A stretch of 60,576 nt of DNA, taken from assembly GCA_905478185.1 (NCBI GenBank), contig CAJQHO010000038.1, positions 1 to 60,576 on the forward strand, in the 5' to 3' direction. Shown piece after piece: positions 13,439-39,604 of this stretch (positions are counted from its first letter, which is position 1; the number at the start of each line of letters is the position of its first letter). The position numbers were made by a program, and so were the translations under genes. The stretch is from an uncultured Flavobacteriales bacterium (GTDB taxonomy: Bacteria; Bacteroidota; Bacteroidia; Flavobacteriales; BACL11). The notes under the pieces were generated by a model. The model saw only the letters and a list, made by a program, of their open reading frames with translations, made no database searches and was not told the DNA's origin.

Positions 13439-13783
13439 TTATTCTTCTTCTTTAAATTCAAGGTGCTGACAACATGAAGGTAACTTATCATGAGCTTTCT
13501 TATTTCCCTTAACATCATCAGCATTATATCCTATTGAGGAGATTACTTGTCTTAGTTTATCTATATCTGTTTTCTTTGTTTTGAAAGATACTGTAAGTAT
13601 ACCGGTCTCGATCTCTAGGTCTACTGCTGTTACACCTCTGGTAAATTGCATCTCCTCTTCTATTTTTTCTTTACAACATAACATATCAACACATGGTGCA
13701 GAAGTCAGAATCTTTACTGTTTCTTTCTGTGCCCAAGCATTTATTGTTAGAATGCTTAATAAGGCAATGATTAGTTTCTTCAA
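13439..13783 (-). CDS. Periplasmic heavy-metal-associated (HMA) domain protein with non-canonical Cys motifs
   Basis: Signal peptide and a beta-alpha-beta-beta-alpha-beta HMA-like layout. PCVDMLCC replaces the canonical MxCxxC; extra C-terminal PSCCQH. Confidence 0.65.
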   Translation of the reverse strand: MKKLIIALLSILTINAWAQKETVKILTSAPCVDMLCCKEKIEEEMQFTRGVTAVDLEIETGILTVSFKTKKTDIDKLRQVISSIGYNADDVKGNKKAHDKLPSCCQHLEFKEEE

Positions 13784-13802
13784 TTTATTATTTCTTTAAT
13801 TA

Positions 13803-16007
13803 TTATTTAATTTTATATCTAAGCCCTGCATAAATTAATCTACCCATAACTGGAGCATAAATTAATGATGCATCAAAAACTTTTGATTTAGGATTTTCAG
13901 CATTAATTATTGGATTTTCATGCATCTCGCTTAATAAATTCTCCCCTCCTAAATACACGTCAAACTTACGAAACTTTTTTGTTACTTGGGCATTATACAA
14001 ATAAAAAGGATTAGAAAAATCCTCAGCAACAAGAATTTGATTTTTATCTTTATGAACAGGAACTCTACTTTCCCCAACATAATTTGCAGTTACATCAAAC
14101 ACCCATTTATCAAAGTTAGTAGCGTATGAGATATTAAACAATCCTCTATTCTTAGGTGTTAATGGTGCTGTTTTATCATTACCTCTAAAAGTAGTTCTAA
14201 CATCATTAATCTTGTAAGCCATCTTAACATCAAAACGATCGAATAATTCATATACCAGATCAAACTGCATACTATTAGCATAAGAAGTACCCTCTAAATT
14301 AGAAAAGGATAACTCGCCAGGAGTCTCTATATCAACAACTATTTTATTTTCAAATTCTGTTCTATAAGCATCAGCATTAAATGTACCTTCTCTACCAAAC
14401 AGCTTAAAGCAATGAGTTAAATTCGCACCATAATTCCATGCAATCTCTGGCTTTAAATCATCTGCAATTTCAATAGTTCTTGAAGATGCTAAAAAAGATG
14501 CATTTTCAACAAGTACATTAGCTATTCTGAATGCTTTACCTGCCGAAAAACGAATTGCAGTACTCTCTGATGGATTGTACTTCATATTTAATCTTGGCAA
14601 GTAATTTACTTCTTCCGTTTTGTTGTAATAATCACCCCTTACACCTGCAACTAAATTAAAACTCTCACCCCACTTATATGCATATTCCGAGAAGAATCCA
14701 CTCACTAAATCGGTTCTGATTCTACCAGAAAGTGGTGAATTAATTCTACCAGAAAAACTTTCAGTATATCTATCGGTATAATTACTAATACCATACTTTA
14801 ATTTATGATTTGTAGTAGCTATATAAGTTTGTCTGATAAAATTAAAATAAGCGCTTTCTTGCAAACCTTTATAGTTGTTATTTCCAAAAATAGCTGTTTG
14901 ATTATGTCTTCTGAAGGAAGTTTGAAGTCCCATACTTTTACCAGGAGTACTAGGTAATATTGCTCCAGTTTTTGAAGTAAACTCTATCAAATCATTATGA
15001 ATATTTACTTCAAAAGGATTAGTAGCACTTTCTTTACCACCTATCCTATCTTCTACCAAAACCCTTCCTGTAAGTCCAATATGATATTTTGCACTTGCAT
15101 AGTCCCATCTGTTCAGTACATTTATCTGATTAGTCCTTGGCATATCTAAAAAGCCATCTTTATTATTATCTACTTTTCTATCAAAATAAGAAATATGCGT
15201 AAATAAATTACTTGTCCATTTCCCTGATTTTTTAGCAAATAATAAATTATTTTCAAGTTTACCTTCTGAGTTTGTGTAAGCATTCCAAAATAATTTTGGT
15301 GCTGTTTTCGGTTTATAGTACTCTAAATTAATCTGTCCTGCAAAGGATTCAAAACCATTTACAACTGATCCTGCACCTTTAATTATCTGAATAGATTCTA
15401 TCCATGTACCAGGCACATAACTTAAACCATAAGTTGATGTCATACCTCTAATTAATGGAATATTCTCTTGTGTTATTTGAGTATAAACTCCATCTAAACC
15501 CAACATCTGAATTTTTTTAGCCCCACTTACCGCATCAGTAAAATTAACATCAACAGTAGCGTTAGTACTAAAACTTTCTGATAAATTACAACAAGCTGCT
15601 TTCTCTAACTCTCCAGTTGAAAGGGTTTGCATATTTATTGTGTTTATAGTAGAAAACTTAGTAGTATTTAACTTACCCTTAACTTTTACTTCACCTAGTT
15701 CTACTGATGGCTTTAGGTAAATATGATAATGACTCCATTCAGTTATTTCTTGGCTGTAAGCTTGGTAACCCACATAACTAACAACCATAGTTGATGGATA
15801 TTTTTCAGGAGAAGGGATTAAGTAGTAACCTTCTGAGTTTGTAGCAACACCTATTGTTGTACCTTCCCAATAAACATTAGCTCCAGGAATACTAACCTCA
15901 CTACCATCTTGAAGTTGCTCTACAACTCTCCCTTTTATTTTTTTTTCTTGTGCTTTTGTATTTGTTGCTGCAATAAGCACCATTGCAATCAATAGTATCT
16001 TCTTCAT
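13803..16007 (-). CDS. TonB-dependent receptor with N-terminal carboxypeptidase-regulatory-like domain
   Basis: Signal peptide, a CarbopepD_reg-like segment (KGRVV...PGANVYW...SEGYY), a plug (IESIQIIKGAGSVVNG) and a beta-barrel ending in LRYKIK. No SusD partner. Confidence 0.9.
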   Translation of the reverse strand: MKKILLIAMVLIAATNTKAQEKKIKGRVVEQLQDGSEVSIPGANVYWEGTTIGVATNSEGYYLIPSPEKYPSTMVVSYVGYQAYSQEITEWSHYHIYLKPSVELGEVKVKGKLNTTKFSTINTINMQTLSTGELEKAACCNLSESFSTNATVDVNFTDAVSGAKKIQMLGLDGVYTQITQENIPLIRGMTSTYGLSYVPGTWIESIQIIKGAGSVVNGFESFAGQINLEYYKPKTAPKLFWNAYTNSEGKLENNLLFAKKSGKWTSNLFTHISYFDRKVDNNKDGFLDMPRTNQINVLNRWDYASAKYHIGLTGRVLVEDRIGGKESATNPFEVNIHNDLIEFTSKTGAILPSTPGKSMGLQTSFRRHNQTAIFGNNNYKGLQESAYFNFIRQTYIATTNHKLKYGISNYTDRYTESFSGRINSPLSGRIRTDLVSGFFSEYAYKWGESFNLVAGVRGDYYNKTEEVNYLPRLNMKYNPSESTAIRFSAGKAFRIANVLVENASFLASSRTIEIADDLKPEIAWNYGANLTHCFKLFGREGTFNADAYRTEFENKIVVDIETPGELSFSNLEGTSYANSMQFDLVYELFDRFDVKMAYKINDVRTTFRGNDKTAPLTPKNRGLFNISYATNFDKWVFDVTANYVGESRVPVHKDKNQILVAEDFSNPFYLYNAQVTKKFRKFDVYLGGENLLSEMHENPIINAENPKSKVFDASLIYAPVMGRLIYAGLRYKIK

Positions 16008-16022
16008 TTTTTAATATTTAGA

Positions 16023-16050
16023 TTATTATTCAGTTTGTTTACTGAATAAT
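16023..16050 (-). promoter_or_regulatory. 11-bp perfect inverted repeat between the Cys-rich membrane protein gene and the TonB-dependent receptor gene
   Basis: TATTATTCAGT (16023-16033) / ACTGAATAATA (16040-16050) with a 6-nt spacer. No U-run follows on the minus-strand RNA, so it is not a canonical terminator. Confidence 0.4.
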
Positions 16051-16053
16051 ATC

Positions 16054-16506
16054 TTATAATAAAAATGACTGTATATGAGATAAAACAGGTTTATTTAGCT
16101 TTGGTGGAGGTATTCCACTTTGAAAATTATTTGAAATTTTTGAGATATAAAATACATCAGAACAAATAATATTAATTATCGGGTGTACTAAGAGTGAAAA
16201 ATCATAATTAGAAAAAGAAATAATGGTTTCAAAATCAAAATGCACTAATTCTGTTTCGCTAGCACAAGATTTATCTTCTGTTTCCGGGCAGCAAGCTTTT
16301 TCAATCTCTAACATACAGCATGTTACTTTCTTCTGCACCTGTTCACACTGAACTTCTTTTTCTTGGCTACAAGAAGGAACTTCACTTCCTAAATAAATAG
16401 CACCACCTTCTGCACATTTCATTTTTGAAATATTTAATCCCATTGACAATAGCATAGTAAATATTGCCAAAGGTATAAAGATGATATTTTTAATAATCCA
16501 TTTCAT
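16054..16506 (-). CDS. Cys-rich membrane-anchored protein (possibly HYC_CC_PP-type family)
   Basis: One N-terminal TM segment, then KCAEGG, CSQEKEVQCEQVQKKVTCCMLEIEKACCPE..SCASE and a C-terminal GIPPPK. The family name is from memory only. Start chosen at the second MKW; the track start is 16542. Confidence 0.5.
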   Translation of the reverse strand: MKWIIKNIIFIPLAIFTMLLSMGLNISKMKCAEGGAIYLGSEVPSCSQEKEVQCEQVQKKVTCCMLEIEKACCPETEDKSCASETELVHFDFETIISFSNYDFSLLVHPIINIICSDVFYISKISNNFQSGIPPPKLNKPVLSHIQSFLL

Positions 16507-16569
16507 TTCAATCGCAAAGATACTGAAATTTAACCACTTCAAAACATATTGCTTTTAAATCTTATCTAT

Positions 16570-17172
16570 TCAATCTCTTTTAAATAGTGAAATAGTAAAA
16601 TTTTGAGTAGTTGTAAAAGGGGTAAAATGATCTTTCTTAAAAGAATCGATAACAGTTAAAGAACCTTTAAATTGACTTTTCAAGTCTAATTCAGAATATT
16701 TGCAAATTTCCAAACCACTACATTTATTTGGACCATCATCTGAGAAGGTAGCTAACAACATATAACCAGAAATAGCATAATTCACTAATTTTTTATAGTT
16801 ATTTTTATCTATCTCGGTTGTTAGAAAATGAAATACTGCTCTATCATGCCAAATATCATATTTATCTATTGGCTCAAATTCAGTTATATCAGAAACAATC
16901 CACTTTACTTTATTTGAATCTTTTCCAAGTCTTTCTTTTGCTCTTTTAATTGCATTCTTTGAAATATCCAACACAGTAATATTGATATAACCTAACTTAA
17001 GTAAATGATCAACCAAAAAACCATCTCCTCCACCAATATCAATAATAGATGCATCTTTTTTTAATCTTAATGATGCTATTAAATCCAGAGAAGTCTGTGG
17101 CACTTCCTGAAACCAAGAAACCTCTTTCATTCCCTTGGTAGCATAAATATTGTCCCAATGTTTTTTACTCAT
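16570..17172 (-). CDS. Class I SAM-dependent methyltransferase
   Basis: SAM motif I IIDIGGGDGF followed by VLDIS. Start at MSKKHWDNIY, 1 nt after the upstream stop; the track start at 17247 overlaps the upstream gene. Confidence 0.8.
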   Translation of the reverse strand: MSKKHWDNIYATKGMKEVSWFQEVPQTSLDLIASLRLKKDASIIDIGGGDGFLVDHLLKLGYINITVLDISKNAIKRAKERLGKDSNKVKWIVSDITEFEPIDKYDIWHDRAVFHFLTTEIDKNNYKKLVNYAISGYMLLATFSDDGPNKCSGLEICKYSELDLKSQFKGSLTVIDSFKKDHFTPFTTTQNFTISLFKRD

Positions 17173-17173
17173 T

Positions 17174-18571
17174 TTATAAAGTTGAAGGACATACTTCTTC
17201 AGATAAAGGAAGGTCAGTTTTTTTAATCGCGCCAAAACCACCCTCAATATTAGTAACGTTATGAATTCCCTCTCTTTTTAAGAGTGAACAAGCAATAACT
17301 GAACGATACCCTCCAGCACAATGCACAAAATTTTCAGCAGTAGAATTTAGTTTGTCATTTTCCAAATCACTTAGAGGATTAAATACAGCAGAGATAATAT
17401 GCCTGTTTTTATATTCAGCTTCTTTTCTTACATCAATAATATCAATCACATTATCTGCTTGGTAAATTTCATCAAAAGCATTAGCTGATATAGATGATAT
17501 AGTTGCTAAATCATCTTGTTCCCAAACTTGAACCCCACCACTTAGATGCCCCAATACATTATCAAAACCTACACGAGATAAACGCGTAGCAACCTCTTCC
17601 AATCTACCTTTATCACATACTAATAAAATTGGGGTTGCTACTTGTTTAATAATTGTTCCAACCCAAGGAGCAAAGCCACCATCAATCCCAATAAAAATGG
17701 AATTTGGAATAAAACCTTTTACAAAATCAGCAGCACTTCTTACATCTAAAATAATAACACCTGCTTGTGTTGATTTTGTTTTAAACTCCTCAACTGAAAG
17801 GGCAATATTTGCTTTATCAATACTATCATTTTCAGGGTTATACCCTAGTTTGTTTAAAGTTACATTTTCAGGGAAATAAGCCGGTGGAGGTAAGATTCCA
17901 TCTGTTACTTCTTGTATAAATTCTTGCTTAGTCATATCTGCACGCAAAGCATAGTTATTTACTTTTTCATATCCAATTGAGCCAATTGTTTCCTTGCTCA
18001 TATTTTTCCCACAAGCAGAACCAGCACCATGCCCAGGATACACAATTACCTCATCAGCTAAAGTCATAATTCTAGTCCTTAAACTATCAAATAACATTCC
18101 AGCTAAATCATCTTGAGTTAAATCAGATTTCTGTGCTAAATCAGGTCTACCTACATCCCCTAGAAACAAAGTATCTCCTGAAAACAAGGAGACCTGTTTA
18201 CCATTTTCATCAATAAGTAAATAAGAAGAACTTTCCAAAGTATGGCCAGGAGTATGTAGTAATTTTATAGTTACATCCCCTACTTTAAACTCTTGATTAT
18301 CCTCAGCCACCAAACACTCAAAATTAGTAGTTGCAGTTGGTCCGAACACAATTTCAGCTCCAGTTTGCTGGGCTAATGTTAAATGACCACTCACAAAATC
18401 AGCATGAAAATGTGTTTCAAAAACATATTTAATTTTTGTTCCCCTATCAGCAGCCATAGAAATATAAGTTCCTACCTCACGTAAAGGATCAATAACTGCC
18501 GCCTCACCATTACTCTCAATATAATAGGCGCCTTGCGCCAAACAGTCTGTGTATAATTGCTCTACTTTCAT
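17174..18571 (-). CDS. MBL-fold persulfide dioxygenase fused to two rhodanese-homology domains (CstB-like)
   Basis: THFHADFVSGH metal motif. The middle rhodanese-like domain reads LLVCDKGR; the C-terminal rhodanese has active-site loop HCAGGYRS. Confidence 0.85.
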   Translation of the reverse strand: MKVEQLYTDCLAQGAYYIESNGEAAVIDPLREVGTYISMAADRGTKIKYVFETHFHADFVSGHLTLAQQTGAEIVFGPTATTNFECLVAEDNQEFKVGDVTIKLLHTPGHTLESSSYLLIDENGKQVSLFSGDTLFLGDVGRPDLAQKSDLTQDDLAGMLFDSLRTRIMTLADEVIVYPGHGAGSACGKNMSKETIGSIGYEKVNNYALRADMTKQEFIQEVTDGILPPPAYFPENVTLNKLGYNPENDSIDKANIALSVEEFKTKSTQAGVIILDVRSAADFVKGFIPNSIFIGIDGGFAPWVGTIIKQVATPILLVCDKGRLEEVATRLSRVGFDNVLGHLSGGVQVWEQDDLATISSISANAFDEIYQADNVIDIIDVRKEAEYKNRHIISAVFNPLSDLENDKLNSTAENFVHCAGGYRSVIACSLLKREGIHNVTNIEGGFGAIKKTDLPLSEEVCPSTL

Positions 18572-18572
18572 T

Positions 18573-19367
18573 TTAATTTAATTCTTTTAATAATATATAT
18601 ACTGCCATAGCTAATACAAACCAGCCAAATCCTTTTTTTAATTTTCTCACGTCAATAAAATTATTTAAGTAAATACCTAAAACAATTCCTATCATTGAAA
18701 GTCCTGCAAAAGTAAGAAGGAAACCCCAAGCAATTTCAATATTCCCTATATCTCCTAAAAATCCGATTAATGATTTTATTGCAATAATCATTAATGATGT
18801 AGCTACTGCCTTTTTCATTGGTAAGTTAGCAAATAATACTAATACTGGAATAATTAAAAAACCTCCTCCTGCACCAACTAAACCAGTTAAAACACCTACG
18901 ACTAACCCTTCAATAATAATTAAAGGATAATTAAACTGCACATCTTTTTTCAATACTACTTCTTTCCGCTCTCTTATCATACTAATAGATGCTGCTAACA
19001 TGATAACTGCAAAGAAAATCATAACTACCATATCCTTTGTAAGGATAAAACTATCTAAAGTAAATATTACTTCAGGAATTGCAGGTACAATTATTTTTCT
19101 TGTTAAAAATACTGAAAGAAAAGAAGGTATAGCAAAAACTATACCCACTTTATATTCAATCATACCTTTTTGTGCATTTCTTATCGCACCAACTAAAGCT
19201 GTACTCCCCACAATAAATAAGGAATATGCAGTAGCCGTAACCGGATTTACACTTAATAAATATACCAAAACTGGCACCGTTAATATAGACCCTCCACCAC
19301 CTGTTAATCCCAGAACAGTTCCTATAACAAGTGCCCCAACTAATCCATATAAATTAAGTATTTCCAT
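18573..19367 (-). CDS. TauE/SafE-family sulfite/organosulfur anion exporter
   Basis: Polytopic, with two internal repeats containing GGGGSIL / GAGGGFLIIPVL motifs. Confidence 0.85.
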   Translation of the reverse strand: MEILNLYGLVGALVIGTVLGLTGGGGSILTVPVLVYLLSVNPVTATAYSLFIVGSTALVGAIRNAQKGMIEYKVGIVFAIPSFLSVFLTRKIIVPAIPEVIFTLDSFILTKDMVVMIFFAVIMLAASISMIRERKEVVLKKDVQFNYPLIIIEGLVVGVLTGLVGAGGGFLIIPVLVLFANLPMKKAVATSLMIIAIKSLIGFLGDIGNIEIAWGFLLTFAGLSMIGIVLGIYLNNFIDVRKLKKGFGWFVLAMAVYILLKELN

Positions 19368-19376
19368 ATGTACTGC

Positions 19377-19652
19377 TTATGATTTTTGTGACTCAACACT
19401 CATCCATCCTCCTCCATTATATACTTTTTCAAAACCATTTGATGAAAGGTAAGAAACTGCTTGTCCACTTCTGTTTCCAGACTCACAACACATAACCATA
19501 GGCTGCATTGCTTTAAGCTCTTCAATTCTTTCCACTAGCTCATCCAAAGGAACATTAACAGAACCTGGAACATTACCTCCCATAAACTCACCTGGAGTTC
19601 TAACGTCTACAATTGTAATTGCTGAGTCATTAATTAAATCTTGTAAATTCAT
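19377..19652 (-). CDS. Single-domain rhodanese sulfurtransferase (cytoplasmic)
   Basis: DVRTPGEF...VPL and active-site loop CCESGNRS. Start at MNLQDL; the track start is 19691. Confidence 0.85.
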   Translation of the reverse strand: MNLQDLINDSAITIVDVRTPGEFMGGNVPGSVNVPLDELVERIEELKAMQPMVMCCESGNRSGQAVSYLSSNGFEKVYNGGGWMSVESQKS

Positions 19653-19708
19653 TTTTCTTTTTTTTAAATTATTTATGATACAAATAAACAAACTATTTTA
19701 ATTCTATA

Positions 19709-19726
19709 TTGTAACATTTGTTACAA
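19709..19726 (-). promoter_or_regulatory. Candidate Crp/Fnr-family operator A (TTGTAACA-TT-TGTTACAA)
   Basis: Perfect 8-2-8 inverted repeat about 65 nt upstream of the rhodanese ATG. 17 of its 18 nt recur at 21772-21789. Followed after exactly 20 nt by TTTATTTG (19688-19681). Confidence 0.65.
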
Positions 19727-19761
19727 ACTAGAAGAAAACTTGAAAATATAAAATAGGAGCT

Positions 19762-20481
19762 TTACTCCAATTTAATTTTATTTATTAATTCTTTTTTATC
19801 AATCATTCCAACATGTCTGAATTCCTCATTACCATCTTTAAATACAATAAAAACAGGCACCCCTCTTACCTTGAATTTTCTCACTAGCTCTTTATTAGCA
19901 TCAGCATCAATAAAAACAATTTTTACATCCTTATTCTCTTTTTTTATTTCTTCAATAACTGGCTTCATCTTTTTACAAGGAACACACCACTGTGTACTAA
20001 AATCAACTAAAACAACATCATTGCTTTCTATAATATGAGAAAATTCAATAACTGACATTGCTTTTTGCTTTTTAAGAATTTCTCCTTTTGTAACTACAAC
20101 TTTAATACCTTCTGATTTCCATGCACCAAAACCACCTAATAAATTATATACTTTCTTAAAACCTAAGTCTTTCATTTTAGTAACAGTTTTAGAGCTTCTT
20201 CCTCCGCTCGCACAATACACATAGATAGGCACATCTTTCCGTATTAATGCCAACTTTTCAGCAAAATCAGATGCATAAAAATCAATATTTGTTGCATCTT
20301 CAATATGCCCCTCATTTACCTCACCAATAGTTCTAACATCCAAAACAATTCCTTCATCAGAATTCATTAGTTTATTAAACTCTACTACACTAACATTATT
20401 AATTACTTGCGCCTCAATTGGCCCTAAAGAACAAGACACAAGAACAAAACTCACTAAACTATATATTATTTTTTTCATCAT
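19762..20481 (-). CDS. Lipoprotein rhodanese-thioredoxin fusion (exported)
   Basis: Lipoprotein signal (FVLVSCS), rhodanese loop YCASGGRS, and a C-terminal thioredoxin fold with WCVPC. Confidence 0.85.
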   Translation of the reverse strand: MMKKIIYSLVSFVLVSCSLGPIEAQVINNVSVVEFNKLMNSDEGIVLDVRTIGEVNEGHIEDATNIDFYASDFAEKLALIRKDVPIYVYCASGGRSSKTVTKMKDLGFKKVYNLLGGFGAWKSEGIKVVVTKGEILKKQKAMSVIEFSHIIESNDVVLVDFSTQWCVPCKKMKPVIEEIKKENKDVKIVFIDADANKELVRKFKVRGVPVFIVFKDGNEEFRHVGMIDKKELINKIKLE

Positions 20482-20484
20482 TTC

Positions 20485-20673
20485 TTATTTTAAAAAATCT
20501 CTAAACAAATCAAAAAGCATTCCCCCCATAAACATACCATAAAGAGTACTTTTATACCATACTGAAGTTATAGCACATGTACCTGTAAAGCACCCAATAT
20601 ATTTCCAGTACAAATATCCTGATATTCCTCCAATAATCACTCCAATTACTATCATAACTTCTCTTTTAGGCAT
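20485..20673 (-). CDS. Small two-TM membrane protein with inter-helix CxxxxC (DUF6132-like)
   Basis: 62 aa: hydrophobic helix, GCFTGTCAITS, hydrophobic helix. TAATG overlap with the upstream rhodanese gene. The family name is from memory. Confidence 0.6.
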   Translation of the reverse strand: MPKREVMIVIGVIIGGISGYLYWKYIGCFTGTCAITSVWYKSTLYGMFMGGMLFDLFRDFLK

Positions 20674-20984
20674 TAGCTGCTTAATTTTCTATTTAAACTA
20701 CTCCAACCTCCACCGTTATAAGCATTGATGCCTCTTGACTTTGCGACAGAGGTAGCTTGCCCACTTCTCATTCCTGATGCACAACAAAAAATGATCGGTT
20801 TCTTTAAATTCTCTATTTTTTTAATCATGGATTTAATCTTATCTAAAGGGACATTAGTTGCAGCATTAATATGACCAGAATTGAACTCTCCTGGAGTTCT
20901 TACATCAATTATAATTGCTCCATCTTTAATTAACTGATTATAATCAGTTAATTTAATTCCAAAAAGTTTCTTTAATATTGACAT
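20673..20984 (-). CDS. Single-domain rhodanese sulfurtransferase (cytoplasmic)
   Basis: DVRTPGEF...NVPL and active-site loop CCASGMRS. Paralogue of 19377..19652. Confidence 0.85.
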   Translation of the reverse strand: MSILKKLFGIKLTDYNQLIKDGAIIIDVRTPGEFNSGHINAATNVPLDKIKSMIKKIENLKKPIIFCCASGMRSGQATSVAKSRGINAYNGGGWSSLNRKLSS

Positions 20985-20985
20985 T

Positions 20986-21345
20986 TTATTTAATTTTTAG
21001 CACATCTATTATTACACTTTTTAATGCTTTTTCATCCAACATTCCAGCTGCCATTTGAGGTGACTCTCCCATAGGGACAAAAAGAAGAGAAGGAATACTT
21101 CTTATTCCAAATGAAGCTGATAGCTCTTGTTCAGATTCAGTATTAACTTTATAAACATCAATCTTTCCCTCATATTCTTTTGCAATATTTTCTAATTTTG
21201 GGGCAAGCATTTTACAAGGTTGACACCAATCTGCATAAAAGTCAATTATACATGGCTTATCACCTTTAAAATTCGAATCACCTTTTTCATTTTCAATATC
21301 GTGTACTCTTTCTTTAAACGATTCTTTATTTAGTTCTTTTATCAT
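20986..21345 (-). CDS. Thioredoxin (WCQPC variant)
   Basis: IIDFYADWCQPCKMLAP...RSIPSLLF thioredoxin fold; no signal peptide. Confidence 0.85.
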   Translation of the reverse strand: MIKELNKESFKERVHDIENEKGDSNFKGDKPCIIDFYADWCQPCKMLAPKLENIAKEYEGKIDVYKVNTESEQELSASFGIRSIPSLLFVPMGESPQMAAGMLDEKALKSVIIDVLKIK

Positions 21346-21348
21346 TTT

Positions 21349-21723
21349 TTATTTATTTTTAAGTTTATAATGCATAAAGATATTTGCCCAAATTATTTTT
21401 GAAAGTGAGTGCATTTTAAGAGATAGAAATAACCAACCTATTGAAATAATAATGACTTTCCTTAAGTATTCTATTTCTATATTAAGTACATATAAAGCAA
21501 CAACTATAGTAACAAAATATGCAGTTCCTAATGCATATGAAATATACATAGCTCCAAAATAAAAACCAGGTTCTGGATGAAAAGTATTATTACAAACTTG
21601 ACATTCATCATAAATATCCCCCAACTTTTTTAAATCATACGGATGGCTTAGAAAGAAATCTCCTTCATGACAATGAGGGCATTTTCCATTTAAGATACTG
21701 TATAGCTTTGTTCCTTTCTTCAT
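21349..21723 (-). CDS. DUF983-like membrane protein with N-terminal four-Cys zinc ribbon
   Basis: CPHCHEGDFF...(17 aa)...CQVCNNTF followed by two hydrophobic helices. ATG at 21723; the track used a TTG at 21729. Confidence 0.6.
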   Translation of the reverse strand: MKKGTKLYSILNGKCPHCHEGDFFLSHPYDLKKLGDIYDECQVCNNTFHPEPGFYFGAMYISYALGTAYFVTIVVALYVLNIEIEYLRKVIIISIGWLFLSLKMHSLSKIIWANIFMHYKLKNK

Positions 21724-21771
21724 CTTCAAATAATTTGATAGTGCAAATAAAAGGGCTTAAAACATAAAAGA

Positions 21772-21789
21772 TTGTAACATTTGTTACAC
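21772..21789 (-). promoter_or_regulatory. Candidate Crp/Fnr-family operator B (TTGTAACA-TT-TGTTACAc)
   Basis: 17/18 identical to operator A, in the same orientation, about 57 nt upstream of the DUF983-like ATG. Followed after exactly 20 nt by TTTATTTG (21751-21744). Confidence 0.65.
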
Positions 21790-21799
21790 AAGGAATATA

Positions 21800-22435
21800 T
21801 TAGAGTTTTAGGATTTTAATTTGATTTCTTAGTAGTTGTAATTCACCATCTTTTTCAAGTTTTTTTAGAATTCTACTTACAACAACTCTGGATGTATTTA
21901 ATTCATCAGAGATGATATTATGGGTAATATTTAAGGTTTCATCTTTATTAGCTATAACTTTATCTTTCAAATACTTCAATACCCTTTCATTCATATTCAT
22001 AAAAGCGAGAGAATCAATTGCTTCTAACATTTCTTTCATTCTATTATTATATGAACCAAAAACAAATGCTCGCCAAGTCTTATAATGAAGCCAATCCTCC
22101 ATCTTAGAAATGGGTACTAATAATAGAGTTGTATCAACTTCAGCAACAGCTTTAATTTCACTTTTAGCACCTCTTATACAGCAATTAAGAGTCATTGCAC
22201 AAGTATCTCCACCTTCTATGAAATAAAGTATATATTCATCACCATCATCATCTGTTCTAAACACTTTAATTGCTCCTGATATGAGCAAAGGCATAAAAGT
22301 CATTTCTTGACCAATATCCATTAAATATTCACCCTTCACTACTTTTTTAAGCCTACCTATTTCACTCAATTCATCAAGTAATTTTCTTTCAAATAGAAAA
22401 GAAAAATTAGCTTTAACTAAAACTTTTATATCCAT
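21800..22435 (-). CDS. Crp/Fnr-family transcriptional regulator
   Basis: N-terminal cNMP-binding-like beta-roll and a C-terminal HTH (ISDELNTSRVVVSRILKKLEKDG). Its only cysteines (C79, C85, C86) sit in the beta-roll (GGDTCAMTLNCC). Confidence 0.85.
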   Translation of the reverse strand: MDIKVLVKANFSFLFERKLLDELSEIGRLKKVVKGEYLMDIGQEMTFMPLLISGAIKVFRTDDDGDEYILYFIEGGDTCAMTLNCCIRGAKSEIKAVAEVDTTLLLVPISKMEDWLHYKTWRAFVFGSYNNRMKEMLEAIDSLAFMNMNERVLKYLKDKVIANKDETLNITHNIISDELNTSRVVVSRILKKLEKDGELQLLRNQIKILKL

Positions 22436-22439
22436 TATA

Positions 22440-22667
22440 TTAAATTTTAAACCCTTGATGTGGCTTTAAACTTCCTCTGAGTTTATTTACTAATTCATCC
22501 GTTACAATCATATAAGAATCAGATGAAAACTGATTCTTCTCTTCAGTACCAAATTCAAAAACATCAATTCTTTCAGTTTTACAGTATTCTTTCAAATGAA
22601 TTAGATGATGTTCAGCAGTTCTCAATGAACCTTCTCCACTAAAATTCCAAACTAATTTTACTTTCAT
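22440..22667 (-). CDS. Hypothetical 75-aa soluble protein
   Basis: ORF tightly packed (4-nt gaps) between a small membrane ORF and the Crp/Fnr gene. No family recognised. Confidence 0.45.
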   Translation of the reverse strand: MKVKLVWNFSGEGSLRTAEHHLIHLKEYCKTERIDVFEFGTEEKNQFSSDSYMIVTDELVNKLRGSLKPHQGFKI

Positions 22668-22671
22668 ATTT

Positions 22672-22866
22672 TTAAAAGAAAAAACCTTTTACTACCAGAT
22701 AAGGAATTAAAATATATAATATTGAATCTCTTATCAAATAAAACATAAAGAAATAAAATAAAATTTTCCAGCCTCCTTTTCTTAAAACGCCTTTAAATCC
22801 ATCTTCTTTAAAAACAGCAATATACTCTTCAAGAAACTTAACTCTTAATAGCTTTTTAATTTTCAT
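22672..22866 (-). CDS. Hypothetical 64-aa membrane protein
   Basis: Starts immediately after the rocD stop, with a C-terminal hydrophobic hairpin (ILFYFFMFYLIRDSILYILIPYLVV). No family recognised. Confidence 0.4.
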   Translation of the reverse strand: MKIKKLLRVKFLEEYIAVFKEDGFKGVLRKGGWKILFYFFMFYLIRDSILYILIPYLVVKGFFF

Positions 22867-24078
22867 TTAGAATGATAAAATAGTTTTTTTAATAATAGCA
22901 ATACACTCCATTAATTGCTCTTCCGTAATTACTAAAGGAGGAGCAAAACGAATAATATCTCCATGAGTTGGTTTTGCAAGTAATCCGTTATCTCTTAACT
23001 TCAAACAAACATCCCAAGCTTCTTTTCCGTTTTTAGGCTTTATTACAATTGCATTTAACAAACCTTTTCCTCTAACCAAAGTAATCATATCATTTTCAAA
23101 GTTTTCTAACTCACTTCTTAATATTTCACCTAATCGTTCTGCATTTTCTGCTAGTTTTTCTTCTTTTACTACTTCCAATGCAGCAATAGCTACTTTGTTT
23201 GCAAGCGGATTTCCACCAAATGTAGAACCATGTTCTCCTGGTCGGATACACATCATTACCGCATCATCTGCTAACACTGCAGAAACAGGAAATACACCAC
23301 CTGAAATTGCTTTTCCTAAAATTAAGATATCTGCTTTTACATCTTCATGATCGACTGCTAATAATTTTCCGGTACGGGCAATTCCTGTTTGTACCTCATC
23401 TGCAATAAATAAAACTCCCGATTGTTTACATAGTTCCTTAGCACCTTTTAAATATCCTTCATCCGGAACAAATACTCCTGCCTCACCTTGAATAGGTTCT
23501 ACCATAAATCCTGCTATTGTCTCATCTTTTAATACTTCTTTTAAAGCATCCAAATCATTATAAGGTATATTTATAAATCCTGGAGTGTATGGGCCAAATT
23601 CTTTTCTAGCATCTGGGTCGTTACTAAAAGAGATAATTGTAGTTGTACGCCCATGAAAATTTCCATTACAAACAATAATTTTGGCTGTATCTGGTGCTAA
23701 ACCTTTCTGCTGATAACTCCACTTCCTACACAATTTAAGTGCAGTTTCTACAGCTTCAGCTCCAGTATTCATAGGAAGTACCTTATTATAACCAAAATAG
23801 TCGGCTATATACTTCTCATAATCTCCTAAAGTATCGTTATAAAAAGCACGAGAAGTTAATGTTAGAACATCAGCTTGTTGTTTAAGTGCATCCACAATTT
23901 TATGATGACAATGCCCCTGATTTACTGCAGAATAAGACGATAAAAAATCATAATATCTTTTCCCCTCAACATCCCATACAAAAACCCCTTCTCCTTTTGC
24001 CAACACTACAGGTAAAGGATGATAATTATGTGCTCCATATTTATCTTCTAATTCTATATATTGTTTTGACTTACTCAT
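22867..24078 (-). CDS. rocD: Ornithine--oxo-acid aminotransferase
   Basis: [40 protein letters not shown]-type N-terminus and a class-III aminotransferase PLP region (ILGKAISGG). Confidence 0.9.
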
Positions 24079-39136: not shown

Positions 39137-39604
39137 TTATTCTGTTTCTGGAACTAAAACAGTTCCTTTAATTGTTAAAACCTTTGTACTTGGAATAGCA
39201 TTAGTAACCAAAGTTACTGTTTTGTTTTGCTTTCCTCTTTTATTTCCACTATTGAAAGTAACTTTAATTATTGCTTCATCACCTACTGCAACTGGTTCTT
39301 TTGGCCACTCAGGCACAGTACAACCACAACTTCCTTTTGCTGAACGAATTAATAAAGGTGCATCACCAGTATTTTTTAATATAAACTCTGTATTCACTGA
39401 TTCCTTCTGATTCATTTCTCCAAAATCAAAAAAGTCTTGTGAAAGTTCAATTTTAGGCATATCAACTTGGTCAGCATTTTTTTCAGCTGTAAGTGGATTA
39501 TTTACTAAATCAGTAGTAATTTTTTTATCATCAGTATTTGAGCATGATGCTAAAACAATAGCTGATAATAATAAAGTGTATAGTGTTTTCATATTCATTT
39601 TCAA
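39137..39604 (-). CDS. DUF1573 domain lipoprotein
   Basis: Lipoprotein signal (LASCS), F.F.NTGD.PL.I..A..SCGCTVPEWPKEP motif. Confidence 0.8.
   Translation of the reverse strand: MKMNMKTLYTLLLSAIVLASCSNTDDKKITTDLVNNPLTAEKNADQVDMPKIELSQDFFDFGEMNQKESVNTEFILKNTGDAPLLIRSAKGSCGCTVPEWPKEPVAVGDEAIIKVTFNSGNKRGKQNKTVTLVTNAIPSTKVLTIKGTVLVPETE

What the first reader, a model, noticed from the sequence alone, without database searches (positions are those of the whole stretch)
19681..19726. Operator A: perfect 8-2-8 palindrome TTGTAACA-TT-TGTTACAA, exactly 20 nt from a TTTATTTG -7-like box, upstream of the rhodanese-TauE-persulfide dioxygenase operon
Seen in sequence: 19709-19726 is a perfect inverted repeat with CRP-like 5-N6-5 geometry (TGTAA-N6-TTACA, against E. 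coli CRP TGTGA-N6-TCACA). On the coding (minus) strand it is followed by 20 nt and then TTTATTTG (19688-19681). The same 17 nt, in the same orientation and with the same 20-nt spacing to an identical TTTATTTG, recur 2 kb away at 21744-21789, and I saw the full site nowhere else in the window. If TTTATTTG is the Bacteroidota -7 element, the palindrome centre lies about 42-44 nt upstream of the start site, the position of class II CRP/FNR activation. A Crp/Fnr-family gene ends 11 nt from the second copy. Inference: both operons form a regulon of that protein, probably activated by it.
Basis: partly seen in the sequence, partly recalled or inferred. Interest (0 to 1): 0.66.

Follow-up and report, generated by a model that had tools for sequence, protein, structure and literature searches.

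The report
Regulator binding site for sulfur-detox operons
The palindrome is very probably the DNA docking site of the Crp/Fnr-type regulator encoded next door, placed where such proteins switch promoters on, and it marks a widespread, unstudied marine Flavobacteria circuit controlling sulfur-detoxification genes.

Summary
TTGTAACATTTGTTACAA (19709-19726) and its 17/18 copy (21772-21789) each lie 20 nt from TTTATTTG on the coding (minus) strand. They precede the rhodanese-TauE-persulfide dioxygenase operon and a DUF983-thioredoxin-rhodanese operon.

The Crp/Fnr gene (21800-22435) ends next to the second copy. In 80 orthologous loci from many Flavobacteriia genera, the core GTAAC-N4-GTTAC occurs 121 times against about 0.4 expected. 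Almost all copies lie downstream of the regulator gene, and 78 sit 19-20 nt from a TAnnTTTG sigma-A box.

With that box at -12..-5, the palindrome centre is at -41.5, the class II activator position. The site is an NtcA-type box (GTA-N8-TAC). The regulator's recognition helix (R-V-x-x-S-R) mirrors NtcA's R186-V187-T190-R191.

The targets are TauE, PDO-rhodanese, rhodaneses and sulfur transporters. The regulator lacks the cAMP-binding residues. Its only three cysteines are invariant and sit in the former nucleotide pocket, so a sulfur-species or thiol-based signal is plausible but untested.

One caveat concerns site A itself. It carries 6- and 8-nt internal deletions in the nearest relatives, whereas site B is conserved. 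Binding, activation and the signal remain inferences.

The parts
19709..19726 (.). Site A: perfect 18-bp palindrome TTGTAACATTTGTTACAA. Predicted to span -50..-33 of promoter P1 on the minus strand, centre -41.5.
   Evidence: geometry and PMC9723704
19681..19688 (-). P1 -7 box TTTATTTG, a sigma-A TAnnTTTG type with T instead of A at the second position. Predicted start site near 19676.
   Evidence: orthologous sites have TAnnTTTG in 67/72 and a purine at predicted +1 in 59/72
19377..19652 (-). Single-domain rhodanese (91 aa from ATG 19652), first gene of operon 1
18573..19367 (-). TauE/SafE-family sulfite exporter
   Evidence: PF01925, 1.9e-41
17174..18571 (-). MBL-fold persulfide dioxygenase fused to two rhodanese domains (CstB/Blh-like architecture)
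16570..17175 (-). SAM-dependent methyltransferase (weak TehB match here; TPMT-type methyltransferases stand in some orthologous operons). Probably still in operon 1.
13439..16506 (-). Possible tail of operon 1: Cys-rich 150-aa protein with no Pfam hit, TonB-dependent receptor and HMA-domain protein. The same order is kept in close relatives.
19756..19768 (-). Terminator-like hairpin GGAGTAAAGCTCC followed by a T-run at the end of operon 2, about 30 nt upstream of site A
21772..21789 (.). Site B: TTGTAACATTTGTTACAc (17/18 palindromic), predicted -50..-33 of promoter P2
   Evidence: conserved in all close relatives
21744..21751 (-). P2 -7 box TTTATTTG. Predicted start site near 21739.
19762..21723 (-). 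Operon 2: DUF983 (21349-21723), thioredoxin (20986-21345), rhodanese (20673-20984), DUF6132 (20485-20673), rhodanese-thioredoxin fusion with an N-terminal hydrophobic, signal-peptide-like segment (19762-20481)
21800..22435 (-). Crp/Fnr-family regulator, 211 aa. Recognition helix TSRVVVSR (R183, V184, S187, R188). Its only cysteines are C79, C85 and C86 in GDTCAMTLNCC.

Best explanation
Sites A and B are binding sites for a dimer of the Crp/Fnr-family regulator encoded at 21800-22435. Each sits at -41.5 of a Bacteroidota sigma-A promoter, a position where no -33 element (TTG/TTTG) is present. The bound regulator would therefore contact RNA polymerase and activate transcription, the class II mechanism used by CRP, FNR and NtcA.

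Together the sites place two adjacent operons under one signal. These operons encode rhodaneses, thioredoxins, a TauE sulfite exporter and a persulfide dioxygenase-rhodanese fusion.

The regulator does not bind cAMP. The most likely signal is a reactive sulfur species (persulfide or polysulfide, downstream of sulfide), read by the three invariant cysteines that replace the nucleotide phosphate-binding cassette.

The steps differ in how well they are supported:
- Site exists and is conserved: shown.
- Site is linked to this regulator: strongly inferred, about 0.9.
- Regulator is an activator at -41.5: inferred, about 0.7.
- Signal is a sulfur species read through cysteines: inferred, about 0.5.
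For: Conservation. The core GTAAC-N4-GTTAC occurs 121 times in 80 orthologous loci against 0-2 per shuffle. 114 of the 121 lie downstream of the regulator gene, and 48 of 80 loci have one within 150 nt of its stop codon.

Fixed phasing. 78 sites lie 19-20 nt from TnnnTTTG. Two positions that the search did not require also fit a promoter: A at -11 in 67/72 and a purine at +1 in 59/72.

Position. The sigma-A box spans -12..-5 (PMC9723704), which puts the palindrome centre at -41.5. NtcA-activated class II promoters carry GTA-N8-TAC at -41.5 (PMC3898017).

Recognition helix. The helix aligns to CRP R180/E181/R185 as R183/V184/R188. NtcA reads GTA-N8-TAC with R186, V187, T190 and R191, and changing that Val to Glu abolishes binding (PMC11850224). 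Here the pattern is R-V-x-x-S-R and the site is GTA-N8-TAC.

Covariation. Relatives with Glu at that position carry G-type half-sites (GTGAT/GTGAC) in 6 of 10 half-sites. Val-type loci do so in 10 of 168. Fisher p = 3e-5, not corrected for phylogeny.

Regulon content in orthologues. Rhodanese 33, TauE 27, MBL/PDO 26, plus YeeE-type sulfur transporters, SulP, a Psr-like reductase, peroxiredoxin and TPMT.

Regulator. The cAMP contacts E72 and R82 are replaced by Met and Ser. C79, C85 and C86 are its only cysteines and are invariant in all 80 loci. C79 is kept in 138 of 141 representatives down to about 32% identity.

Not a duplication. Spacers and flanks of sites A and B are unrelated.
Against: - No transcription start site is mapped. 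Public metatranscriptome data are assembled contigs and gave no 5' ends. The -41.5 figure therefore rests on the -7 box consensus.
- No binding or expression data exist.
- The window's boxes read TTTATTTG, not TAnnTTTG.
- The -33 element is weak or undetectable in Flavobacterium promoters generally (PMC7366714). Its absence here is therefore not diagnostic of activator dependence.
- The known persulfide sensors CstR, SqrR and BigR are repressors. FisR is an activator.
- Site A carries 6- and 8-nt internal deletions in the nearest relatives. In one RNA-derived contig the regulator, operon 2 and site A are all skipped. The site is therefore dispensable in some strains.
- Orthologous regulons sometimes include HMA proteins, CusB-like RND pumps and multicopper oxidases. 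This leaves a thiophilic metal as a possible signal.
- The cysteine loop is modelled with pLDDT below 50.
- The covariation with Glu/Val is imperfect: L095 is Glu-type but has GTAAC half-sites.
Confidence: 0.65

Rival explanations
1. The same regulator and the same site, but acting as a repressor. The dimer would occupy -50..-33, where sigma-A region 4 would contact DNA. It would block the promoter until the signal releases it, as CstR, SqrR and BigR do.
For: The characterised persulfide sensors CstR, SqrR and BigR are repressors (PMC5595413, listed; PMC5823870). In orthologues the promoter-proximal flank is often TG at -34/-33, a possible partial -33 element overlapped by the site. Strains with site A deleted, or with the whole regulator module skipped, still yield RNA-derived contigs for operon 1.
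Against: A repressor has no need for helical-phase precision, yet 78 of 78 promoter-associated sites sit within 1 nt of the same position. That position, -41.5, is the class II activator position for CRP-family proteins, including the NtcA-type box. NtcA-repressed promoters carry the box downstream of the -35 region instead. The RNA contigs with the deletion run across the site, so they can be read-through transcripts from upstream.
Confidence: 0.17
2. The palindrome is bound by a different transcription factor encoded elsewhere, and the adjacent Crp/Fnr gene is unrelated to it.
For: No binding data exist. Flavobacteriia encode many Crp/Fnr paralogues, so a paralogue with the same helix could share the site.
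Against: The site follows this gene within 150 nt in 48 of 80 loci across many genera. The helix R-V-x-x-S-R matches the NtcA code for GTA-N8-TAC. Half-site identity shifts with the Val/Glu residue.
Confidence: 0.05
3. The inverted repeat works as an RNA hairpin, either a terminator or attenuator between the upstream gene and the operon, or a processing site, rather than as a DNA operator.
For: As RNA, site A with its flanks folds at -11.2 kcal/mol (z = -5.7). Site B folds at -4.9 kcal/mol and is followed by CUUUUAU. Both sites sit directly after the stop codon of the preceding gene.
Against: The half-site sequence itself is invariant across genera while the 4-nt centre and the flanks vary. 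This is conservation of sequence, not compensatory pairing. The stem is AT-rich and no proper U-tract follows site A. A fixed 20-nt distance to a promoter box has no meaning for a terminator. A separate GC-containing terminator-like hairpin already lies at 19756-19768.
Confidence: 0.03
4. The site and regulator are as in the best explanation, but the signal is not a sulfur species. The Cys triad would instead bind a thiophilic metal or metalloid (Cu(I), As, Te/Se), a haem or an Fe-S cluster, reporting metal or redox/O2 status.
For: A C-x5-CC triad is also a plausible metal, haem-thiolate or cluster ligand set. HMA proteins, CusB-like RND pumps, multicopper oxidases and TehB/TPMT-type methyltransferases appear behind the motif in some genomes.
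Against: The dominant and most widely conserved targets are TauE, PDO-rhodanese and rhodaneses. These are the same functions that the persulfide sensors CstR and BigR control (PMC5480029, PMC5823870, listed).
Confidence: 0.25

Closest known systems
NtcA of cyanobacteria and its class II promoters (GTA-N8-TAC at -41.5)
   Same: The box is the same: TGTAAC-N4-GTTACA contains GTA-N8-TAC. The position is the same, -41.5 (PMC3898017). The recognition pattern is the same: NtcA R186-V187-x-x-T190-R191 against R183-V184-x-x-S187-R188 here (PMC11850224). Both are two-domain Crp/Fnr dimers by fold.
   Different: It is not an NtcA orthologue: TIGR03697 scores 27.7 bits against a cut-off of 244.95. It is in a different phylum and uses a different sigma-factor promoter type (TAnnTTTG). 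Its regulon concerns sulfur, not nitrogen. The effector pocket carries a Cys triad, and nothing suggests 2-oxoglutarate or PipX.
E. coli CRP (CAP) class II promoters, TGTGA-N6-TCACA
   Same: It has the same 5-N6-5 geometry and the Arg180/Arg185 equivalents. It has the same overall domain architecture and the same class II position.
   Different: Glu181 is replaced by Val, and position 7 of the half-site is A, not G. The cAMP ligands E72 and R82 are replaced by Met and Ser. The NCBIfam CRP model scores 40 bits against a cut-off of 266.
Persulfide/sulfide-responsive regulators CstR (CsoR family), SqrR/BigR (ArsR family), FisR (sigma-54 activator)
   Same: The controlled functions are the same: persulfide dioxygenase-rhodanese fusions, rhodaneses and TauE-type exporters. 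Conserved cysteines are the candidate sensor.
   Different: The protein fold and DNA-binding mode are unrelated. CstR, SqrR and BigR are repressors, whereas the geometry here indicates an activator. The cysteine chemistry is untested here. No Crp/Fnr-family persulfide sensor turned up in four literature searches.
FNR (O2-sensing [4Fe-4S] Crp/Fnr regulator)
   Same: It belongs to the same family, acts by class II activation at -41.5, and senses through cysteines.
   Different: There is no N-terminal Cys cluster: the first cysteine is C79. The DNA site differs (TTGAT-N4-ATCAA for FNR, from established knowledge). The NCBIfam Fnr model scores 26 bits against a cut-off of 228.
PDB 3dv8, an uncharacterised Crp/Fnr protein of Eubacterium rectale
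   Same: It is the closest solved relative (E = 2e-22). It keeps cysteines at the positions of C79 and C85.
   Different: It lacks the vicinal CC pair. Its helix reads HREVITR (Glu-type). Its function is unknown.

Membership tests
Crp/Fnr superfamily (the regulator) | N-terminal cNMP-binding-like beta-roll plus C-terminal Crp-type helix-turn-helix | tested here: met
   PF00027 2.1e-09 and PF13545 2.5e-08, both above the gathering score. Foldseek top hits are all Crp/Fnr proteins.
Crp/Fnr superfamily (the regulator) | Long central dimerisation helix between the two domains | tested here: met
   The AlphaFold model has a helix at 119-146. It is a model only, with mean pLDDT 79.
cAMP receptor protein proper | cAMP-contacting residues E72, R82 and S83 of the phosphate-binding cassette | tested here: not met
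   The alignment to CRP gives Met at E72 and Ser at R82. Ser at the R82 position occurs in 129/141 relatives. The NCBIfam CRP equivalog scores 40.4 against a cut-off of 266.
cAMP receptor protein proper | Site TGTGA-N6-TCACA read by R180/E181/R185 | tested here: not met
   Val replaces E181. The half-site is TGTAA.
NtcA | Recognition residues Arg-Val-x-x-Thr-Arg reading GTA-N8-TAC | tested here: met
   The regulator has R183-V184-x-x-S187-R188 (Ser for Thr) and the site contains GTA-N8-TAC. This is shared DNA specificity, not orthology.
NtcA | Orthology to cyanobacterial NtcA (equivalog model) | tested here: not met
   TIGR03697 scores 27.7 bits against a cut-off of 244.95.
FNR | N-terminal Cys cluster plus a central Cys ligating a [4Fe-4S] cluster | tested here: not met
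   There is no cysteine before residue 79. The only cysteines are C79, C85 and C86.
Class II activator-dependent promoter | Activator site centred near -41.5 relative to the transcription start | tested here: inconclusive
   It is met if the start is inferred from the -7 box at -12..-5. No start site is mapped, and the RNA contigs gave no 5' ends.
Class II activator-dependent promoter | Transcription depends on the activator | not testable with these tools
   This needs a regulator knockout or in vitro transcription.
Bacteroidota sigma-A promoter | -7 element TAnnTTTG | tested here: met
   The window has TTTATTTG (7 of the 6+2 specified or variable positions fit; T replaces A at position 2). 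Orthologous sites have TAnnTTTG in 67/72.
Thiol-based persulfide sensors (CstR, SqrR/BigR) | Conserved cysteine pair that forms di- to tetrasulfide links on persulfide exposure | not testable with these tools
   Three invariant cysteines are present but their chemistry is unknown. The loop is modelled with pLDDT below 50.
Thiol-based persulfide sensors (CstR, SqrR/BigR) | CsoR-like or ArsR-like fold | tested here: not met
   The fold is Crp/Fnr. It can only be an analogue, not a member.

The most novel reading that the evidence does not exclude
The regulator founds a further structural class of bacterial reactive-sulfur sensors. It would be a Crp/Fnr-family protein, widespread in Bacteroidota, in which the cyclic-nucleotide phosphate-binding cassette has been replaced by an invariant C-x5-CC triad. 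It would act as a class II activator on an NtcA-type box to switch on persulfide dioxygenase, rhodaneses and a sulfite exporter. The best-known thiol-based persulfide sensors (CstR, SqrR, BigR) are repressors. The family has 157 representative clusters at E <= 1e-30.
Probability: 0.4. Interest if true: 0.75.

Novelty: new member of a known kind. Interest (0 to 1): 0.55.

Why it matters
Marine Flavobacteriia are major degraders of algal and particulate organic matter. They meet sulfide, polysulfides and organosulfur compounds on particles and in sediments.

How they control sulfide/persulfide detoxification is, as far as four literature searches showed, undescribed. The known sensors (CstR, SqrR/BigR, FisR) come from other phyla and other protein families.

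This finding gives a concrete, testable circuit:
- a defined 16-18-bp operator;
- a defined promoter geometry;
- a regulator with only three cysteines to mutate;
- a conserved target set.

It also offers a simple Val/Glu specificity rule that ties the operator to the protein. The rule can be tested by a single residue swap. The circuit could be used as a marker set for reading sulfur stress in marine metatranscriptomes.

Tried and rejected
(1) Mapping start sites from public RNA data. The metatranscriptome runs that hold the locus are kept only as assembled contigs. No molecule ends were reported, and several contigs come from strain variants. This gave no start-site evidence.

(2) Geometry of the Cys triad from a structure model. 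Residues 82-88 have pLDDT below 50, so no distances were interpreted. The Foldseek search only confirmed the family.

(3) Recent duplication as the cause of the identical 17-mer and 8-mer. Rejected, because the spacers and flanks do not align.

(4) Terminator or hairpin reading. Rejected as the main function. See the rival explanations.

(5) ECF-sigma -35-like 'GTAAC' element. Rejected. The motif is two-fold symmetric, the downstream element is the sigma-A TAnnTTTG box at 20 nt, and there is no CGT-type -10 element.

(6) Sigma-70 consensus scan. It was uninformative for this phylum: 57 hits against 60.7 expected.

(7) Literature searches. I searched for a Crp/Fnr persulfide or sulfide sensor, for this motif, and for this gene cluster in Flavobacteriia. 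Nothing relevant was found. The library does not cover subscription journals, so absence is not proof.

(8) A third site in the window. The core match at 39204-39217 is intragenic and has no box. I treat it as chance.

(9) Autoregulation. There is no site upstream of the regulator in the window. The gene follows a 75-aa ORF by 4 nt and is probably co-transcribed with it. Only a few orthologous loci have a site upstream of the regulator.

Full report
**1. The observation**

The sequence is as described.
- 19709-19726 reads TTGTAACATTTGTTACAA, a perfect 8-2-8 inverted repeat.
- On the minus strand it is followed by exactly 20 nt and then TTTATTTG (19688-19681).
- The second copy, TTGTAACATTTGTTACAc (21772-21789), is followed by 20 nt and the same TTTATTTG (21751-21744).

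The exact 17-mer occurs nowhere else in the window. Matches with up to 3 mismatches number 6 against 0.99 expected, and none of 100 shuffles reached 6. Four of those six are the two sites read on both strands.

The two promoter regions align only at the palindrome and the 8-mer. The 20-nt spacers and the flanks are unrelated. The identity is therefore selective, not a recent duplication. A metagenome contig from an independent run reproduces 19000-23000 exactly.

**2. The surroundings**

All genes here are on the minus strand.
- The 211-aa Crp/Fnr protein (21800-22435; cNMP_binding + HTH_Crp_2) ends 10 nt before site B.
- Site B and its box precede operon 2: DUF983 (ATG 21723), thioredoxin, rhodanese, DUF6132 and a rhodanese-thioredoxin fusion with an N-terminal hydrophobic, signal-peptide-like segment.
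- A terminator-like hairpin with a T-run (19768-19756) closes operon 2.
- Site A and its box then precede operon 1: rhodanese (ATG 19652), TauE/SafE, an MBL-fold persulfide dioxygenase with two rhodanese domains, and a methyltransferase.
- Probably also in operon 1 are a Cys-rich 150-aa protein, a TonB-dependent receptor and an HMA protein.
- The regulator gene follows a 75-aa ORF by 4 nt and has no site of its own upstream.

**3. Conservation elsewhere**

A scan of one genome per species returned 586 relatives of the regulator. I studied the 80 best, which have 51-81% identity and come from many genera of Flavobacteriia and a few other Bacteroidota.
- In these 1.05 Mb the core GTAAC-N4-GTTAC occurs 121 times, against 0-2 in each of 20 dinucleotide-preserving shuffles.
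- The hits are strongly one-sided. 114 lie downstream of the regulator's stop codon and 7 lie in the equally long upstream half. 48 of 80 loci have one within 150 nt of the stop.
- I tabulated the distance from the palindrome to the nearest TnnnTTTG without preselection. It is 20 nt in 72 cases and 19 nt in 6, with all other distances at 1-2 each.
- Two positions that the search did not force behave as a promoter should. The second box position is A in 67/72, giving TAnnTTTG. The base 5 nt after the box is a purine in 59/72.
- With only GTxAy-N4-y'Tx'AC plus a box required, 71 of 84 sites are GTAAC/GTTAC.

**4. What the sites control**

In the orthologous loci the first gene behind a site is TauE (23), PDO-rhodanese (14) or another sulfur-related gene.

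A Pfam census of 123 genes in the operons behind the sites gave rhodanese 33, TauE 27 and MBL/PDO 26. Smaller numbers were YeeE-type sulfur transport proteins, peroxiredoxin, Tll0287-like cytochrome c proteins, a PsrB/NrfD-type reductase with its molybdoenzyme, TPMT methyltransferases, SulP permeases, thioredoxins and RND efflux components.

The theme is handling of sulfide, persulfide, sulfite and thiosulfate. A minority of metal-related genes also appear.

**5. Promoter geometry**

In Flavobacterium psychrophilum, where start sites were mapped genome-wide, the sigma-A box TAnnTTTG occupies -12 to -5 (PMC9723704).

Applying this here puts the 18-mers at -50..-33 and their centres at -41.5. 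The predicted starts are near 19676 and 21739. This is the position of class II CRP, FNR and NtcA sites (PMC3898017).

No TTG/TTTG -33 element is present at the expected place in the window. This argument is weak, because the -33 element is poorly defined in Flavobacterium (PMC7366714).

**6. Does the neighbouring protein fit the site?**

The profile alignment to E. coli CRP places R183, V184 and R188 at CRP R180, E181 and R185.

CRP with Val181 no longer discriminates the base at position 7 of the half-site. It was originally selected on operators with A or T there (PMC2677863, citing Ebright).

More directly, NtcA recognises GTA-N8-TAC with Arg186, Val187, Thr190 and Arg191. Replacing that Val by the Glu of CRP abolishes binding (PMC11850224). 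The regulator here has R-V-x-x-S-R, and its presumed site TGTAAC-N4-GTTACA contains GTA-N8-TAC. All 80 orthologues keep TSRVV[VI]SR.

Among 141 more distant representatives, 91 have Glu and 46 have Val at this position. I fetched DNA for several Glu-type relatives that keep at least part of the Cys motif.
- L089 has AGTGAT-AATA-ATCACC, then 20 nt, then TATATTTG, in front of a PDO-rhodanese gene.
- L086 has TGTGAT-ATTC-GTCACA next to a Pyr_redox_2 gene.
- L091 and L097 have one G-type and one A-type half.
- L095 has two A-type halves.

G-type halves make up 6 of 10 in Glu-type relatives against 10 of 168 in Val-type loci. Fisher p = 3e-5, uncorrected for relatedness and based on a small sample. 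This supports the protein-site assignment but is not proof.

**7. The sensor domain**

The cAMP ligands of CRP are not kept: E72 becomes Met and R82 becomes Ser.

The protein has only three cysteines, C79, C85 and C86, in GDTCAMTLNCC. They fall in the stretch that forms the phosphate-binding cassette in CRP, aligned to I70, L75 and F76. All three are invariant in alignment A1 and present in all 80 loci. This is biased, because one of the two retrieval patterns contained the motif.

In the unbiased representative search C79 is kept in 138/141, C85 in 76/141 and C86 in 81/141. The AlphaFold model is confident overall (mean pLDDT 79) but not for residues 82-88 (below 50), so I drew no geometry from it.

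The closest solved structure is the uncharacterised 3dv8, which keeps two of the cysteines. The NCBIfam equivalog models for CRP, NtcA and Fnr all score far below their cut-offs.

**8. Mechanism proposed**

A dimer of the regulator binds each palindrome at -41.5 and activates sigma-A RNA polymerase. The two operons, and in other genomes further operons, form one regulon.

The signal is most likely a reactive sulfur species acting on the Cys triad. The reasons are that the conserved targets are those of the known persulfide regulons, and that the only cysteines of the protein sit where the ligand would be.

The existence, conservation and phasing of the site are shown. The protein-site link is strongly inferred. 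Activation is inferred from position and family precedent. The signal is an inference with serious alternatives (a thiophilic metal, haem or an Fe-S cluster).

**9. Caveats found on the way**

In the nearest syntenic relatives, site B is conserved but site A is not.
- L101 has TTGTATACAA (8 nt lost from the centre) and L100 has TTGTCAGTACAA (6 nt lost). Both sit in otherwise almost identical intergenic DNA.
- L102 and L103 have no intergenic region at all, so a single long operon lies under site B.
- The 8-nt deletion allele also appears in contigs of two metatranscriptome runs. One RNA-derived contig joins 19694 to 22444, skipping site A, operon 2, site B and the regulator. That junction was not seen in four DNA runs.
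- In L098 (regulator 91% identical) the second site precedes a multicopper-oxidase cluster instead of operon 1.

Site A is therefore a real member of the motif family. It is evolutionarily labile in this population, and the regulon's periphery varies.

**10. Comparison with what is known, and novelty**

Functionally this is a textbook class II Crp/Fnr arrangement, and its DNA code is that of NtcA. It is a member of neither NtcA, CRP proper nor FNR, because defining features were tested and not met.

It resembles CstR, SqrR and BigR only in what it controls. Four literature searches found no description of this regulator family, motif or regulon.

I classify the operator as a new member of a known kind. 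The regulator may turn out to be a new variant, a thiol-based Crp/Fnr sulfur sensor, with probability about 0.4.

**11. Verdict**

- Observation: confirmed.
- Interest: moderate (0.55). The architecture is ordinary. The circuit is widespread, unstudied and directly testable, and it may reveal a new sensor class.

Noticed in passing
window 19709-19726 versus L100:9340-9360 and L101:9340-9358: Site A is polymorphic among close relatives. There are two different internal deletions of the palindrome: 6 nt, leaving TTGTCAGTACAA, and 8 nt, leaving TTGTATACAA. Both lie in intergenic DNA that is otherwise almost identical to the window, although the regulator proteins are only 80% identical. The 8-nt allele also occurs in contigs of RNA runs X24 and X25.
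   Followed up: partly
window 19694 joined to 22444 (RNA run X22; probably also X23): A metatranscriptome contig skips 2749 nt covering site A, operon 2, site B and the regulator gene, with 7 nt of microhomology at the joint. This fuses the 75-aa ORF directly to the P1 box and operon 1. It was not seen in four DNA runs. It may be a strain-level deletion variant.
   Followed up: partly
window 39204-39217: This is a third exact match to the core GTAAC-N4-GTTAC (AGTAACCAAAGTTACT). It lies inside ORF 39137-39604 (minus strand) with no -7 box at the right distance. It is probably chance.
   Followed up: yes
L098:10290-10380: In the closest relative (regulator 91% identical), a second perfect site (ATGTAACAATTGTTACAG, 20 nt, TTATTTTG) precedes a cluster of multicopper oxidases with T9SS sorting domains instead of the TauE-PDO operon. 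HMA proteins and CusB-like RND pumps also appear behind the motif in other genomes.
   Followed up: partly
orthologous sites, positions -34/-33 (alignment): The motif is asymmetric in most orthologues. The promoter-distal flank is T (TGTAAC) but the proximal half is usually GTTAC-TG rather than GTTAC-A. This may be a remnant of a -33 TTG element. The window's two sites have AA there.
   Followed up: no
window 19700-19732: Site A has additional flanking symmetry (TCTAG...TATAGA), which site B lacks. This raises the predicted RNA or cruciform stability to -11.2 kcal/mol.
   Followed up: no
window 16054-16542: This is a Cys-rich small membrane protein (150-162 aa, several CC/CxxC motifs) with no Pfam match. 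It sits between the methyltransferase and the TonB-dependent receptor and is conserved in the same place in L100-L103.
   Followed up: no
window 22440-22866: Two small ORFs (75 aa and 64 aa) without Pfam matches lie between an ornithine-type class III aminotransferase and the regulator gene, with gaps of 0-4 nt. Both are conserved in L100 and L101. The regulator is probably co-transcribed with them.
   Followed up: no
L086, L089, L090, L095-L097: More distant relatives of the regulator (about 37-46% identity), with Glu in place of Val in the recognition helix, also sit next to rhodanese, PDO-rhodanese, DUF6132, YgaP-like or Pyr_redox_2 genes. The sulfur association therefore extends well beyond the Val-type subfamily.
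   Followed up: partly
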